From Eledone cirrhosa (lineage: Eukaryota), in assembly GCA_964016885.1 (NCBI GenBank), contig OZ024748.1, positions 58,776,001 to 58,840,000 on the forward strand: 64,000 nucleotides of DNA, in the 5' to 3' direction. How positions within the stretch are numbered: the stretch's first letter is position 1; every line of letters starts with the position of its first letter. Below are positions 6,742 to 41,008 of this stretch, one piece after another. A program made the translations under genes and the position numbers. The notes under the pieces were generated by a model. It did no database searches. It was not told where the DNA came from and saw nothing but the letters and a program-made list of their open reading frames with translations.

Positions 6742-7170
6742 AATAATTGTTTCTACTTTTGGTACAAGGCCAGCAAATACACAGTGGATTACTGGTATTT
6801 TATTTTATTGATCCCGTAAGGATGGAAGGCAAAGTTAATCTCGGCGGGATTTGAACTCAGAATGGTAAATCTATGCGTCAAACCATGGCGTCCGACTCTC
6901 TACCGATACTGCCAATCCCCCGACTGCCAATCCAGAACTGCAGTTCTGTTCGCATGCCAACATAAGAGCAAGAATGAAGTGTTCATTCTGATGACATGGC
7001 TATAAAATTGAGGCTTGTTTGCAAAATTGCAAACGAATCGAATGTTATTATTAATGTTCAAATCCCGCCGAGGTTTACTTTGCCTTTCATCCTTACGGGG
7101 TCGATAAAATAAAGTACCAGTAATGCACTGGGTAATTGCTGGCCTTGTGACTAAAGTAGAAACAATTATT
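6742..7170. mobile_element. Dominant SINE: full copy 6742-6920(-) and 5'-truncated copy 7056-7170(+)
   Basis: The + copy has TSD attattaat (7047-7055 / 7165-7173) and is absent from the sister repeat at 7600. Confidence 0.85.
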
Positions 7171-7458
7171 AATATTCGAAAAACTCGATTACATTTATTG
7201 CATTCAGCCATGTAGAGCGAAATTTTCTTTTGCTTTTGTTTTTTGAATTTGGCAAAGCCGACCATTTATCGCTCGTATACAGGAAACTGACTGGCCAGTC
7301 TGCTGATATGCAAATCTGGCTGATCAGTGGATCGGCTAATATGCAGATCTGACTGATCAGCCAGTCTGCTAATATGCAAATCAGGCCGATCAGTCACTGT
7401 GAATTTTGAAAATAGCATATATTTTCACTAGCTCTGACAGTTTGGCAGGTGAACAGTT

Positions 7459-7506
7459 AGCTGTACTGATGAAGGGTGATACCCAGAAACATTAGTGTCT
7501 GCAGTT
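7459..7506 (+). ncRNA. Type-I hammerhead ribozyme (family A)
   Basis: agctgta-CTGATGA-a-gggt(gat)accc-a-GAAA-cat(ta)gtg-TC|tgcagtt. 7-bp stem I, 4-bp stem II, near-palindromic stem III, GUC cleavage triplet ending at 7499. Confidence 0.85.
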
Positions 7507-7666
7507 CTGTTCGCATGCCAACATAAGAGCAAGAAGAAGGGTTCATTCTACTGACATGGCTATAAAATTGAGGCTTGTTTGCAAAATTGCAAATGAATCG
7601 AATGTTATTATTATTCGAAAAACTCAGATTACATTTAGTGTATTCAGCCATGTAGAGCGAAATTTT

Positions 7667-7723
<57 letters not shown>

Positions 7724-16353: not shown

Positions 16354-16896
16354 AAACGGAAAAAATGAAACGAAATTTCATTTCCCACTCTTAGTACGGC
16401 TGTTACTTAAATATAAGTATGTACACGTACATACATATATGTATACAGACGTACAGTAGTATGTATATATATATACATGCACACATATATATATACGTAT
16501 GGATTCACCGAACATTTATTATAATGCTCGATGTGTTTGGAAACAAACATCCCATATTAAGCCGTAGTTTCCAGCAACCATCGTTGCTCGTTTGTTCAAC
16601 ACTAACAAAGGAACGCTGTACTAGTTTCAAGCTTATTAGCTATTGTCAGCAACGTATAACTTCCTGCCAGATTGTTGAACGTATATACTTACCTTATGCA
16701 TATTAACAGCTGAGAAGCCCAATTTGCATATCGAGTGGGTTAATCGGTCTTGTACGTCTGTATACATATATGTATGTACGTGTACATATTTATATTTAAG
16801 TAACAGCCGTACTAAGAGTGGGAAATGAAATTTCGTTTCATTTTTTCCGTTTATCGTTTTCGGTGCACCCGGCCGATTAACCCACTCGATATGCAA

Positions 16897-18491: not shown

Positions 18492-19281
18492 AAGACTTAT
18501 CTATGAATATCCTGTAATGTTTAACTATACATAGAGGAAGGTATAAATGTATCACGAGGGAGATATTGTAAAATGAATGGCCAGTGGTCTACAGTGAGTT
18601 TATGACTTGTAATTCACTTTTACAGTTGTCATTTTTATCCACATCCAACTTTAGTAATTGTATATTTACATGTGTTCCTTAAAAACTGACAATTAAATAT
18701 AAAATTATAGCAATTGCCATTTTCCCTATCAATTCTCAACAGGTATCCATGTGATGGTTTGGGGAGTAGGCAAGTGTCGAAATTATATGACTAACATAAA
18801 ATTCGGGTAAATGGAGAATAGTGTGAAACTTCTATTAAACTGTCAAGAGACAAAAGTTAGGTTTAACTTATTTATTACAAGAAACATTAAAATCTAATAG
18901 CTTAAATAAGAATAGTTTCTTCTCCTAACGTGATTTCTTACGATATAATGCAGGGTGTGAAAATCTAACAGTCCATATAAATGTATAATATATGTTCTTA
19001 TTCAGGTCATCCAAAGAATATGGTTGAAACAATCATCTTACTTTTTGGCCAAAGTAATTTGTCTTCAATATAAGTGTGTATACGTACATACGTATATGTA
19101 TACAGAGGTACAGTAGTATGTATATACATACATACATGCACACACATATATATATATGTACGTATGGGTTTAACTAACATTTATTATAATGCTCGGTTTG
19201 TTTGTAAACAAACAGCCCGAATTATTAGCCGCACAGTGTTCGGCAACCATCGTTGCCCTTTTGTTCAACACTGACAAAGGA

Positions 19282-19324
19282 ACTATGAACTAGTTTCTAG
19301 CTTATTAGCTGTCATCAGCACCGT
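19282..19324 (-). ncRNA. Type-I hammerhead (family C), left arm of palindrome
   Basis: Reverse complement: acggtg-CTGATGA-c-agct(aata)agct-a-GAAA-ctag-TT|catagt. Confidence 0.65.
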
Positions 19325-19494
19325 CTACCTTCCTGTCAGTTGATTGAACGTTTGAAAGTATATATTTTCCTTATGCATATTAACGGCTGAGCAGCCTAAT
19401 TTGCATATCGATATGCAAATTAGGCTGCTGAGCCGTTAATATGCATAAGGAAAATATATACTTTCAAACGTTCAATCAACTGACAGGAAGGTAG

Positions 19495-19537
19495 ACGGTG
19501 CTGATGACAGCTAATAAGCTAGAAACTAGTTCATCGT
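19495..19537 (+). ncRNA. Type-I hammerhead (family C), right arm of palindrome
   Basis: acggtg-CTGATGA-c-agct(aata)agct-a-GAAA-ctag-TT|catcgt. 6-bp stem I, palindromic stem III ACTAGT. Confidence 0.72.
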
Positions 19538-19704
19538 ATATACATACTACTGTACGTCTGTATACATATATGTATGTACGTATACATACTTATATTTAAG
19601 TATCAGCCGTACTATGAGTGAGAAATGAAATTTCATTTTTTTCCATTTAATTTGTCTTCTTTATCATATAAATTGATAGAAATAGAAGCCTAGCTTCTGT
19701 CAAG

Positions 19705-38088: not shown

Positions 38089-38130
<42 letters not shown>

Positions 38131-38250
38131 CAGACAGACAGAGAATATATATAAGACCTATGACATCGACATTGACATATGTTCCTGTTGTCACATGATG
38201 AAAGCTATGGGGACTGCATCCGTTGAGATGAGACTGTTAATAATAATAAT

Positions 38251-38938
38251 GTGATTTTAGTAAGTAAGTTAATTTTATAATTTTCTTATTTTACGTCTCT
38301 CATATTATTGTTCTGCAACTCCATGCATTGAACCACAATGTTACTAAGACAAAACCTATATATTTGCTAGCATTGATATGCATCTGTATGTATATATATG
38401 TTACTAGATATTAATTCTTTATAATTATCTCCAAATTATTTGTCGAGCAATATTGGCCATGACTGCTGCTATGGTAGTAGGCAGGCCGCTGTCTTATTAG
38501 CAAACCACTTTCCACTGATTGACCTCGATGTCACGTGATTGATTCTTTTTGAATTTGTCACAGACGCAGAGTCAGAGATTTTCTCAATGGCTAGGAGTTC
38601 AGTCCACGCTTTGCTATTTCCTATCCACTGAATTATTTTTTAATAAGTTTCCAGAGTCCTCACTTTGCCTGGAAACTTAGATGAGAATAGACTTCCCTGA
38701 CGACGGAATGTTTCTCAATATCTTCTTCGGAAAATATATTTACTCCATTCCAGAAACTAATTAGTTGGAAGTGATATTTTAGTAAGTAAGTTAATTTTAT
38801 AATTTTCTTATTTTACGTCTCTCATATTATTGTTTTGCAACCCCATGCATTGAACCACAATGTTACTAAGACAAAACCTATATATTTGCTAGCATTGATA
38901 TGCATCTGTATGTATATATATGTTACTAGATATTAATT

Positions 38939-38944
<6 letters not shown>
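38251..38944 (+). mobile_element. Non-autonomous hammerhead-bearing element (family B), about 1.3 units of a ~520-nt monomer
   Basis: 38251-38422 is a near-identical direct repeat of 38771-38944. The repeat starts a few nt after the predicted cleavage site (38766). The element ends in (TA)n. Confidence 0.72.
38691..38772 (+). ncRNA. Type-I hammerhead ribozyme (family B)
   Basis: acttcc-CTGACGA-c-ggaatg...cattcc-a-GAAA-ctaattag-TT|ggaagt. Perfect 6-bp stem I, 6-bp stem II with long loop, palindromic stem III ACTAATTAGT. Confidence 0.82.
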
Positions 38945-38998
<54 letters not shown>

Positions 38999-38999
38999 A

Positions 39000-39110
39000 A
39001 ATAAAATGAAAACGAAATTTCATTTCTCACTCTTAGTACGGCACTTACTTAAATGTAAGTATGTGTGTATACGTACATACATATATGTATACAGACGTAC
39101 AGTAGCATGC

Positions 39111-39141
<31 letters not shown>

Positions 39142-39285
39142 CAGGTACACATACATATATGCACGTATCAGTTTAGCGGACGCTTATTATAACGCCGTTT
39201 TGTTCGTTTGTAAACAAACTGAACAGCCTGAATTTTATGCCTGTATACATATATGTATGTACGTATACACACATACTTACATATA
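39000..39285. mobile_element. Family C element, copy 3 (truncated before the ribozyme)
   Basis: Shares gaaatttcattt(c)..cactcttagtacggc... with 16373 ff. Internal inversion at about 39054-39095 / 39241-39283. Flanked by (TA)n. Confidence 0.7.
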
Positions 39286-39307
39286 TATATATATATATAT
39301 ATATACA

Positions 39308-39676: not shown

Positions 39677-39977
39677 ATGTGTGCCCACACAGACATTCAT
39701 GAGCACGGGTGTGTGCATGGGTCGATGTATTTGTCTGAGCATGTATGAGTGGAGGTACGGATGACACTCCATGGATTTTTCTTTTCCCATCTGTCTATAT
39801 ATGTGTGCGGCGTCTTGGCTATGCACACTCCCCTGAGTCCAGTGTGTGAGTGGAATGGGGTCTATTTGTTGAAAACACCTTTGATATAGCCCCTCCGTTT
39901 GAATGGCTGTTGAAAGCTTTTTTTTTTTAAACGTTCTTGCTACAGGTTCTTTCTTTTTCTTTTTCCTTTTCTTTTTG

Positions 39978-40399
39978 AAATATGTATGGCAGAGTGAATC
40001 CTAAGGCTGTGTCCTACTAATGTTACGCTAAATATGTATGGGGGAGTGTATCCTAAGGCTGTGTCCTACTAATGTTACGCTAAATATGTATGGTGGAGTG
40101 AATCCTAAGGTTGTGTCCTACAAATGTTACGCTAAATATGTACGGTGGAGTGAATCCTAAGGTTGTGTCCTACTAATGTTACGCTAAATATGTATGGCGG
40201 AGTGTATCCTAAGGCTGTGTCCTACAAATGTTACGCTAAATATGTATGGCGGAGTGTATCCTAAGGCTGTGTCCTACAAATGTTATGCTAAATATGTATG
40301 GCGGAGTGTATCCAAAGGCTGTGTCCTACAAATGTTATGCTAAATATGTATGGCGGAGTGTATCCTAAGGCTGTGTCCTACAAATGTTACGCTAAATAT
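39978..40399. repeat. 52-bp minisatellite, 8 units
   Basis: Unit aaatatgtatggcggagtgtatcctaaggctgtgtcctacaaatgttacgct starts at 39978, 40030, 40082 ... 40342. No spacers. Confidence 0.95.
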
Positions 40400-41008
40400 C
40401 CCCAGGATTTGTTGTTGTTTTTTTAATTCCCGCAAAACATTATTTATGATGAATGCCGCATACAGCATAATGGCGGGTGTGTACCTGACCGATGTAGACT
40501 AAGGCCCCTAGGGGTAATGAAGACGTCGAAGTGATGCCAGCCGTTGAAGATTACAGCCCCTTTCCCACCGTAGTAGTAATTCTGATATATGAAGAAATTT
40601 TGATTGACAGGTGGAGAACGAGAGGAAGCAAGATGTGGGCAACCCTGAGTGGCTAGAAATACCGGTGACGTGTACCGTTCTTGACCACTCATAGAATGAC
40701 AACAACAGAAGAAATTCAATGTTAAAGGACTATAGGAAAATCTGCTTTGTAGAATCGAATAAAGCCAAATCTTTAGAATATTATGTTACCATTACGGGGT
40801 CGATAAAATAAAGTACCAGTGATACACTGGGATAATTGCTGGCCTTGTGCCAAAAAGTAGAAGCAATTATGTTACCATTAGCAATTGAAATACGAATGGA
40901 ATAGAAGTTTCCTTCATTCGTACTGCACCTTGCAAGTATCTCCTCAGGTTATCCAATGATTGACAGTAAAACTTGATACCTACGAAAACTGTGTGGAAAC
41001 ATGTTGTA

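What the first reader, a model, noticed from the sequence alone, without database searches (positions are those of the whole stretch)
38251..38944. Family B: independent 1.3-mer unit with the same architecture
Seen: ~172-nt near-identical direct repeats 520 nt apart; the first starts about 5 nt downstream of the position equivalent to the cleavage site (38766). There is no sequence similarity to family A, yet the layout is the same (post-cleavage segment, spacer, hammerhead, post-cleavage segment, (TA)n) and there is no ORF. GTT|GG may be CpG decay of GTC|GG (inference).
Basis: partly seen in the sequence, partly recalled or inferred. Interest (0 to 1): 0.72.

Follow-up and report, generated by a model that had tools for sequence, protein, structure and literature searches.

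The report
Penelope-pasted retrozyme with built-in ribozyme lock
This is one cut-short copy of a 522-base protein-free repeat with over two thousand ribozyme motifs in this animal genome; it carries a predicted self-cutting RNA and a predicted internal strand that locks it, and is likely pasted into TA microsatellites by the enzyme of a Penelope-type jumping gene, which makes it a new member of a known kind of element.

Summary
The repeat is real: 170 nt, 168/170 identical, 522 nt apart, around a type I hammerhead, ending in (TA)n, no ORF. It belongs to a young dispersed family (2,199 exact motif matches; sister family 9,307). GTT is the family state (GTC: 6), so CpG decay is wrong. Stem II covaries across subfamilies. 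The 1.3-mer is not the unit and its start near the cut site is probably chance: 5' ends are not enriched there (8 of 115, 6.9 expected). Copies are arms of variable length that end at one of two fixed sites 118 nt apart, each followed by (TA)n. Two-armed insertions are head-to-head with one end of each kind (45 of 47; reciprocal sample 9 of 12; never two alike), and both arms share a haplotype. This is the Penelope-like 'tail' signature, also seen in an autonomous element here. A strand half a unit away is predicted to pair across the cut site and tracks subfamily changes. Verdict: non-LTR retrozyme mobilised by a Penelope-like enzyme. Cleavage, RNA circles and the partner enzyme are not shown. 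The scan found this kind before on other DNA, not this family.

The parts
38251..38945 (+). Whole insertion: one 5'-truncated arm (about 1.33 units) of the 522-nt retrozyme family, ending at fixed site A
38254..38423 (+). First copy of the 170-nt post-cleavage segment (m1-m170); 38251-38253 adds GTG with a 2-nt gap
38424..38690 (+). Rest of the unit between the repeats, non-coding, predicted to be strongly paired (whole unit as circle z -5.1 against 60 shuffles)
38506..38521 (+). Predicted lock strand, complementary to both sides of the cleavage site (stem III strand and stem I 3' strand), about half a unit away; kept with matching changes in sister subfamilies
38691..38772 (+). Type I hammerhead motif: stem I ACTTCC/GGAAGT, core CTGACGA, unpaired C and A at the base of stem II, 6-bp stem II base extended to a cUUCGg-capped hairpin, GAAA, palindromic stem III, GTT triplet
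38766..38767 (+). Predicted self-cleavage site (GUU|GG); untested
   Evidence: GUU listed as a cleavable NUH triplet in PMC3138052
38757..38766 (+). Region holding the 10-nt palindrome ACTAATTAGT (38756-38765) that would allow a double-hammerhead stem III between two units
38776..38945 (+). Second copy of the 170-nt post-cleavage segment
38824..38827 (+). Fixed end site B (m52, ...CTCTCATAT); read through in this copy, but 1,298 exact junctions to (TA)n in the genome
38881..38933 (+). Long hairpin just 5' of site A, kept with compensatory changes across subfamilies; likely part of the signal read by the reverse transcriptase
38942..38945 (+). Fixed end site A (m170, ...TCTTTATA), 377 exact junctions to (TA)n for this subfamily
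38942..38994 (.). (TA)n microsatellite, the target

Best explanation
This is a 5'-truncated copy of a high-copy, non-coding 522-nt hammerhead repeat (a non-LTR retrozyme) that is likely pasted into (TA)n microsatellites by the reverse transcriptase and endonuclease of an autonomous Penelope-like element. Shown in the DNA: arms end at one of two fixed sites (A at m170, B at m52), each joined to (TA)n; two-armed insertions are head-to-head with one A and one B end; arms run through the ribozyme site and often beyond one unit; arms and tandem units of one locus share a haplotype. Inferred: both cut target strands prime reverse transcription inside the RNA, one at A and one at B, helped by a few bases of TA match after a hairpin; the two cDNAs stop at random and are joined at their ends; the template is not a cleaved linear monomer but an RNA circle or an uncleaved multimer (I put the circle at about 55:45). 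Predicted: the ribozyme is weak, works best as a dimer in tandem transcripts, and is locked in the finished unit by a complementary strand half a unit away. The window copy is the A arm alone, stopped after 1.33 turns.
For: Copy number. Fixed ends and TA flanks: in 58 loci, 46 B and 44 A ends of 104 aligned pieces, 83 of these 90 followed by TA-rich sequence. Pairing: of 71 arms picked by their A end, 47 have an inverted partner, 45 ending at B, 2 elsewhere, 0 at A; of 30 picked by their B end, 12 have a partner, 9 at A, 3 other, 0 at B; 36 head-to-head pairs gave 24 A+B, 12 with one unclassified end, 0 A+A, 0 B+B. Independent priming: in 17 of 45 pairs neither arm is contained in the other; 43 of 45 are too long for one cleaved monomer; 34 of 45 copy some template base twice. 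One source per insertion: arms of one locus differ by 2.1% against 4.7% between loci, 38 pairs, p 4e-5; discordance at 28 common polymorphic sites 3.3% between tandem units, 7.2% between arms, 42% between loci. Fold: stem II base 97% paired, 3 of 6 pairs with changes on both sides, covariation score reached by 0 of 500 shuffles. Lock strand. An autonomous RT + GIY-YIG element in the same genome has a hammerhead with a UU cut site, two TA-joined ends about 55 nt apart and a head-to-head pair. Literature: two internal RT start sites define the PLE tail, and uncleaved RNA is the dominant substrate in vitro (PMC11167929).
Against: No RNA evidence of any kind was obtained. No autonomous element sharing sequence with this family was found in 90 PLE loci out of 10,596 GIY-YIG candidates. 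The ribozyme fold is not favoured locally (z 0.10; 3.3 kcal/mol cost) and has probability near 0 for stems I and III in the full unit. Discordance at common sites within arrays (3.3%) is above that at other sites (1.2%), and a 12-unit array repeats two private variants four units apart, which points to some local duplication or a mixed template. One duplicated locus (L205/L206) has arms 10% apart. In vitro the Anolis PLE showed no strand difference in start-site use, so the strict one-of-each rule has no biochemical explanation yet. The shuffle control ignores relatedness; the changes are about four independent events.
Confidence: 0.82

Rival explanations
1. Same family and enzyme, but no circle: the templates are uncleaved linear multimer transcripts from tandem donor loci, the ribozyme rarely cuts, and long arrays grow by local unequal crossing-over (the satellite model of Li et al. 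2026).
For: 94 of 101 arms that reach the ribozyme site read through it; uncleaved RNA is the dominant PLE substrate in vitro; 8 of 9 Xenopus retrozyme dimers did not cleave in vitro; four-unit periodic variants in the C5 array; homogeneous donors would also give shared haplotypes.
Against: Covariation keeps the ribozyme fold and a lock strand placed opposite the cut site, which a never-cutting RNA would not need; multimers sit inside insertions bounded by both fixed ends; truncation alone would shorten arrays each generation. None of this is decisive.
Confidence: 0.4
2. The inverted arm arises by fold-back or self-priming on the first cDNA or on an antisense transcript, as proposed for rotifer Penelope (PMC3846280), not by a second priming on the RNA.
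For: Several junctions are symmetric or palindromic (L005, L043, L064, L067, L071, L078); 28 of 45 pairs are compatible by length.
Against: 17 of 45 pairs have neither arm contained in the other; both outer ends are fixed and TA-joined.
Confidence: 0.12
3. One reading: the 1.3-mer is the element, copied from a cleaved RNA whose 5' end is the cut site, and GTT is a decayed GTC.
For: The window copy starts 4 nt after the equivalent site; A arms show a small, non-significant excess there (6 of 70 against 3.7, p 0.17), so a minority of cleaved templates is not excluded.
Against: GTT 2,199 against GTC 6; 8 of 115 ends in the zone against 6.9 expected, 1 of 30 against 1.8; arm lengths are continuous.
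Confidence: 0.05
4. A SINE-like repeat moved by a LINE, or a satellite, in which the hammerhead is a dead relic.
For: Non-coding, short, ends next to a simple repeat; Rfam shows no hammerhead among the listed rows.
Against: Two internal fixed ends, head-to-head arms and tandem permuted units are PLE features; compensatory changes in stem II.
Confidence: 0.05

Closest known systems
Metazoan non-LTR retrozymes (Cervera and de la Pena 2020, PMC7229834: passages and parts 3-4 of 6 read, supplement not; Li, Clavereau and Pollet 2026, 10.64898/2026.07.22.740005: parts 1-3 of 5 read, supplements not seen)
   Same: Non-coding, low-GC tandem units with one type I hammerhead each, thousands of dispersed copies, weak base of stem II (axolotl HHR_Amex2 has a U-U mismatch), short palindromic stem III, PLEs in the same genome.
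   Different: Unit 522-571 nt against ~170-400 nt in the 2020 paper (inside the 51-972 range of the preprint); fixed GUU triplet; ribozyme predicted to be locked by a complementary strand, which the 2020 paper reports for plant retrozymes, viroids and some mussel circles but not most metazoan ones; insertion anatomy (two fixed ends, head-to-head arms in (TA)n) is not described in the parts I read.
Penelope-like elements: pLTR, inverted 5' copy and 'tail' (Craig 2021 PMC8557442, passages; Arkhipova 2013 PMC3846280, passages; Frangieh 2024 PMC11167929, parts 1-2 of 4)
   Same: Partial tandems, inverted 5'-truncated copy, tail at one end only, two internal RT start sites downstream of the hammerhead, AT-rich or (TA)n targets, cleavage not needed for insertion.
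   Different: No ORF; tail of 118 nt against 30-40 nt; one-of-each end use measured here as a strict rule; no sequence link to any PLE sampled.
PLE-type hammerhead variants (Cervera and de la Pena 2014, PMC4209133: passages and one section read)
   Same: [quoted passage not shown]
   Different: A further A between 11.1 and G12 facing the extra C; stem II about 55 nt long; stem I of 6 bp; U at position 17.
Autonomous PLE family in this genome (L158, L168; C-terminal GIY-YIG with a CX4CX2C linker, so Neptune- or Nematis-type by the description in PMC8557442; no tree built)
   Same: Hammerhead with mismatch at the stem II base and UU cut site, distal end about 180 nt after the cut site, two TA-joined ends, head-to-head pair.
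   Different: Encodes RT and endonuclease; ends about 55 nt apart; no detectable sequence similarity.

Membership tests
Non-LTR retrozyme | Type I hammerhead with conserved core in each unit | tested here: met
   Core positions held by 120-125 of about 124-125 loci, except the free position 7 (part of the sample was picked on the 3' motif); covariation in stem II
Non-LTR retrozyme | Short non-coding unit, dispersed, in tandem copies | tested here: met
   No ORF; 522-nt period, arrays to about 12 units, many contigs
Non-LTR retrozyme | No LTR-type ends | tested here: met
   5' ends are random and the direct repeat is a partial tandem; PBS/PPT not searched
Non-LTR retrozyme | At least two complete ribozymes in tandem ('active' by Li et al. 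2026) | tested here: not met
   Not met for this locus (one ribozyme); met for other loci of the family
Non-LTR retrozyme | Self-cleavage of the transcript | not testable with these tools
   Needs a bench assay
Non-LTR retrozyme | Monomeric circular RNA in cells | not testable with these tools
   No raw RNA reads were available; DNA anatomy fits a circle or an uncleaved multimer
Non-autonomous PLE-dependent element | Partial tandem plus inverted 5'-truncated copy | tested here: met
   47 of 71 A arms have an inverted partner
Non-autonomous PLE-dependent element | Tail at one end only (two fixed RT start sites) | tested here: met
   Ends at m52 and m170, one of each in 45 of 47 pairs; tail is 118 nt, longer than the usual 30-40
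Non-autonomous PLE-dependent element | AT-rich or (TA)n target | tested here: met
   83 of 90 typed ends followed by TA-rich sequence
Non-autonomous PLE-dependent element | Sequence shared with the pLTR of an autonomous PLE | tested here: inconclusive
   None in 90 PLE loci; two hits (L112, L163) were separate neighbouring insertions of the sister family; 10,596 candidates exist
Non-autonomous PLE-dependent element | Mobilised in trans by PLE protein | not testable with these tools
   Needs an in vitro or cell assay
Autonomous PLE | ORF with RT and GIY-YIG | tested here: not met

The most novel reading that the evidence does not exclude
The family lives as a viroid-like 522-nt RNA circle whose cut site is clamped by a strand diametrically opposite, which splints the ends for ligation and stops re-cleavage, and a dimeric Penelope-type enzyme copies one such circle from both broken DNA ends at once, one subunit at each of two hairpin-marked sites, rolling round by strand displacement. 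Over 11,000 ribozyme copies would then record a two-primer rolling-circle integration mechanism.
Probability: 0.3. Interest if true: 0.68.

Novelty: new member of a known kind. Interest (0 to 1): 0.42.

Why it matters
The class is known, and this scan has met it in several genomes. What this family adds is a large, young, countable record of how PLE enzymes copy retrozymes, a step that the papers I read leave open: strict one-of-each use of two start sites 118 nt apart, independent priming of both arms from one haplotype, and no need for a cleaved 5' end. It also shows a covarying lock on the ribozyme and a fixed, probably slow, GUU site. A 522-nt RNA with mapped start sites is a ready substrate for testing circle against multimer templates.

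Tried and rejected
CpG decay of the triplet: rejected; the C and A at the stem II base are likewise fixed. 5' ends at the cut site: not enriched. Rfam: no hammerhead among the 150 rows shown of 337. Expression: no RNA holder listed; laying contigs of two runs of unknown kind only confirmed presence and TA-joined loose ends at 38827 and 38423; its A>G excess in run X4 comes mostly from one diverged contig and was not used. Autonomous partner: not found in 90 loci; the sister-family copy 1.9 kb behind the ORF in L163 is separated by a long TA tract. The 125 nt upstream of the window copy (38126-38250) matched only itself, so there is no sign of a second arm or captured repeat; no target-site duplication can be read in TA tracts. 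One search used looser scoring and missed some partners that one search shows, so its 18 'none' rows are too many. An internal promoter was not tested. Not in print: searches listed no paper on this family or on cephalopod retrozymes; an octopus repeat paper has 0 occurrences of 'ribozyme' or 'retrozyme' in its main text (PMC13282606, passages). Repbase/Dfam and supplements were not seen and may hold the family under another name.

Full report
Coordinates. m1-m522 means window 38254-38775, one unit; m170 of the next unit is 38945. The predicted cut falls after m513 (38766).

1. The observation. The two repeats are 38254-38423 and 38776-38945, 168 of 170 identical and 522 nt apart. Between them lies a type I hammerhead: stem I ACTTCC/GGAAGT, CTGACGA, a long stem II, GAAA, CTAATTAG and the triplet GTT. 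A (TA)n tract follows. There is no ORF and no similarity to family A beyond shuffles (12 of 200 as high). Rfam showed no hammerhead in the 150 rows listed of 337, and the 101-nt region alone folds no better than shuffles.

2. It is a large young family. The 698-nt query gave 2,085 candidates and 105 scored matches in the 3.0-Gb own genome, mostly 95-98% identical, with tandem arrays at a 522-525-nt period up to about 12 units. The exact ribozyme 3' motif occurs 2,199 times with GTT and 6 times with GTC, so GTT is the family state and the CpG-decay idea fails. A sister group with a one-base-shorter stem I has 9,307 exact matches and units of 526-571 nt.

3. The fold is under selection. On 19 distinct ribozymes from several subfamilies, 97.6% of cells pair; three of six stem II base pairs change on both sides, one of them through four pair types; the covariation score was reached by 0 of 500 shuffles and drops when partners are slid. 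That control ignores relatedness, and stem III was fixed by the search pattern. The unpaired C after A9 and the G10.1-C11.1 pair match the PLE-type hammerheads described in PMC4209133; an extra A faces that C in 125 of 125 loci. ACTAATTAGT is a perfect palindrome, so two units could form a double hammerhead, as reported for weak axolotl ribozymes (PMC7229834). GUU is a cleavable triplet (PMC3138052); that it is slower than GUC is recalled, not from a call.

4. The insertions have two fixed ends. In 58 loci taken in order along contig C1, aligned pieces ended at m170 (site A, 44) or m52 (site B, 46) in 90 of 104 cases, and 83 of those 90 ran into TA-rich sequence. In a sample picked only by the A junction (first 70 places of 377 exact matches, 71 arms, two probable segmental duplicates kept), 47 arms had an inverted partner joined 5' to 5'; 45 partners ended at B, 2 elsewhere, none at A. 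In the reciprocal sample (first 30 of 1,298 B junctions), 12 partners were found: 9 at A, 2 overshooting to m188-m190, 1 cut off, none at B. The samples overlap in a few loci. Site A follows a hairpin that is kept with compensatory changes in 13 sequences (4 of 30 predicted pairs over the whole alignment change on both sides); site B follows a predicted hairpin that I did not test for covariation. This is the PLE anatomy: partial tandem, inverted truncated copy, tail at one end (PMC8557442; PMC3846280), and the tail is the stretch between two internal RT start sites (PMC11167929). An autonomous element in this genome with RT and GIY-YIG domains shows the same pattern at L168: head-to-head arms, a hammerhead with a UU cut site, and two TA-joined ends about 55 nt apart. 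It shares no sequence with family B, nor did any of 90 PLE loci.

5. The 1.3-mer is an accident of truncation. Arm lengths are continuous, 67 to over 1,500 nt for A and 35 to 1,152 nt for B. Eight of 115 5' ends lie within 20 nt after the cut site, against 6.9 expected (p 0.39); for A arms alone 6 of 70 against 3.7 (p 0.17); 52 of 57 A arms and 42 of 44 B arms read through the site. The window copy is a lone A arm; the 125 nt before it are unique. With one ribozyme it cannot release a monomer.

6. Both arms come from one source and are primed separately. Arms of one insertion differ by 159 of 7,446 positions (2.1%) against 4.7% for arms of other insertions (38 pairs, p 4e-5); tandem units differ by 2.3% against 4.1% (24 arms, p 4e-6). 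At 28 common polymorphic sites discordance is 3.3% between tandem units, 7.2% between arms (two loci with separate insertions included) and 42% between loci. In 17 of 45 pairs neither arm is contained in the other, which excludes fold-back copying for those; 43 of 45 are too long for one cleaved monomer; 34 of 45 copy some base twice. So the template is a circle or an uncleaved multimer. The DNA does not decide: a search for edited bases shared by all units found none, and the long C5 array repeats two private variants four units apart, a sign of local duplication, mixed template or assembly error.

7. A lock on the ribozyme. Folded as a circle, the unit is far more stable than shuffles (-125 against -98 kcal/mol, z -5.1; the minus strand gives -107), and stems I and III do not form; instead 38506-38521 pairs with both sides of the cut site. 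The same pairing appears in 21 of 22 natural units folded, from family B and the sister group. The strand lies 242-254 nt upstream in most copies, and its sequence follows the one-base stem I difference between subfamilies; against shuffles of the same region it is reached by 0-2 of 100 for most B copies and 0-9 of 100 for sister copies, while truncated or inverted loci gave other sites. PMC7229834 reports such blocking for plant retrozymes, viroids and some mussel circles, not for most animal ones. Its position half-way round fits a circle but would also work in a multimer. This is prediction only.

8. Mechanism. Tandem loci are transcribed (inferred); paired ribozymes cut slowly to release a 522-nt monomer that is ligated and locked (inferred from PMC7229834 and the fold); a PLE protein cuts both strands of a (TA)n tract and primes cDNA at A on one strand and B on the other (ends shown, enzyme inferred); the cDNAs stop at random and are joined, or one is lost, which gives single arms like this one (24 of 71). 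Confidence 0.82 for a PLE-mobilised retrozyme, about 0.55 for a circular template within that.

9. Novelty. A new member of a known kind. Searches listed no paper on this family; repeat libraries and supplements were not seen. Earlier notes of this scan describe the same two-armed pattern for other families, in this and other genomes, which I read, when the anatomy was already measured; none matched this sequence. The organism was not determined; those notes suggest a cephalopod.

Noticed in passing
window 6938-7672 (hammerhead 7459-7506): Family A: GUC hammerhead with an A-A mismatch at the stem II base; its first repeat starts right at the cut-site sequence inside a 16-nt palindrome, and it is interrupted by a ~120-nt very common repeat at about 7056-7175.
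   Followed up: partly
window 19060-19602 (hammerhead 19495-19537); related pieces at 16403-16803 and 39057-39290: A third hammerhead family, with a C-A mismatch, CTAG loop and GUU here (GUA in L119 and L165), in head-to-head arms; a fragment lies 110 nt after the family B copy.
   Followed up: partly
L158, L159, L161, L168, L268-L285: An abundant autonomous PLE family with a hammerhead about 370 nt after the stop codon and two fixed TA-joined ends; a good candidate enzyme source for in vitro work.
   Followed up: partly
hammerheads in L105, L114, L119, L156, L160, L164, L174, L259, L260, L280, L282: At least eight further hammerhead families turn up by chance in PLE flanks; nearly all have a mismatch at the base of stem II and a palindromic loop 3.
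   Followed up: no
L205 and L206 (G000:C1 near 426.6 and 426.8 Mb): A duplicated insertion whose two arms differ by 10%, possibly primed on two different subfamily RNAs.
   Followed up: no
L005-L011 (G000:C5:11373382-11379650): About 12 tandem units plus an inverted arm; two private variants recur four units apart.
   Followed up: partly
m104-m146 of the unit, many loci: Several 5' ends cluster at m104 or m123 and two 3' ends at m146, all at TA-rich stretches, perhaps joining or priming by TA match to the target.
   Followed up: no
window 39926-40497: A 52-nt tandem repeat array of about 11 copies.
   Followed up: no
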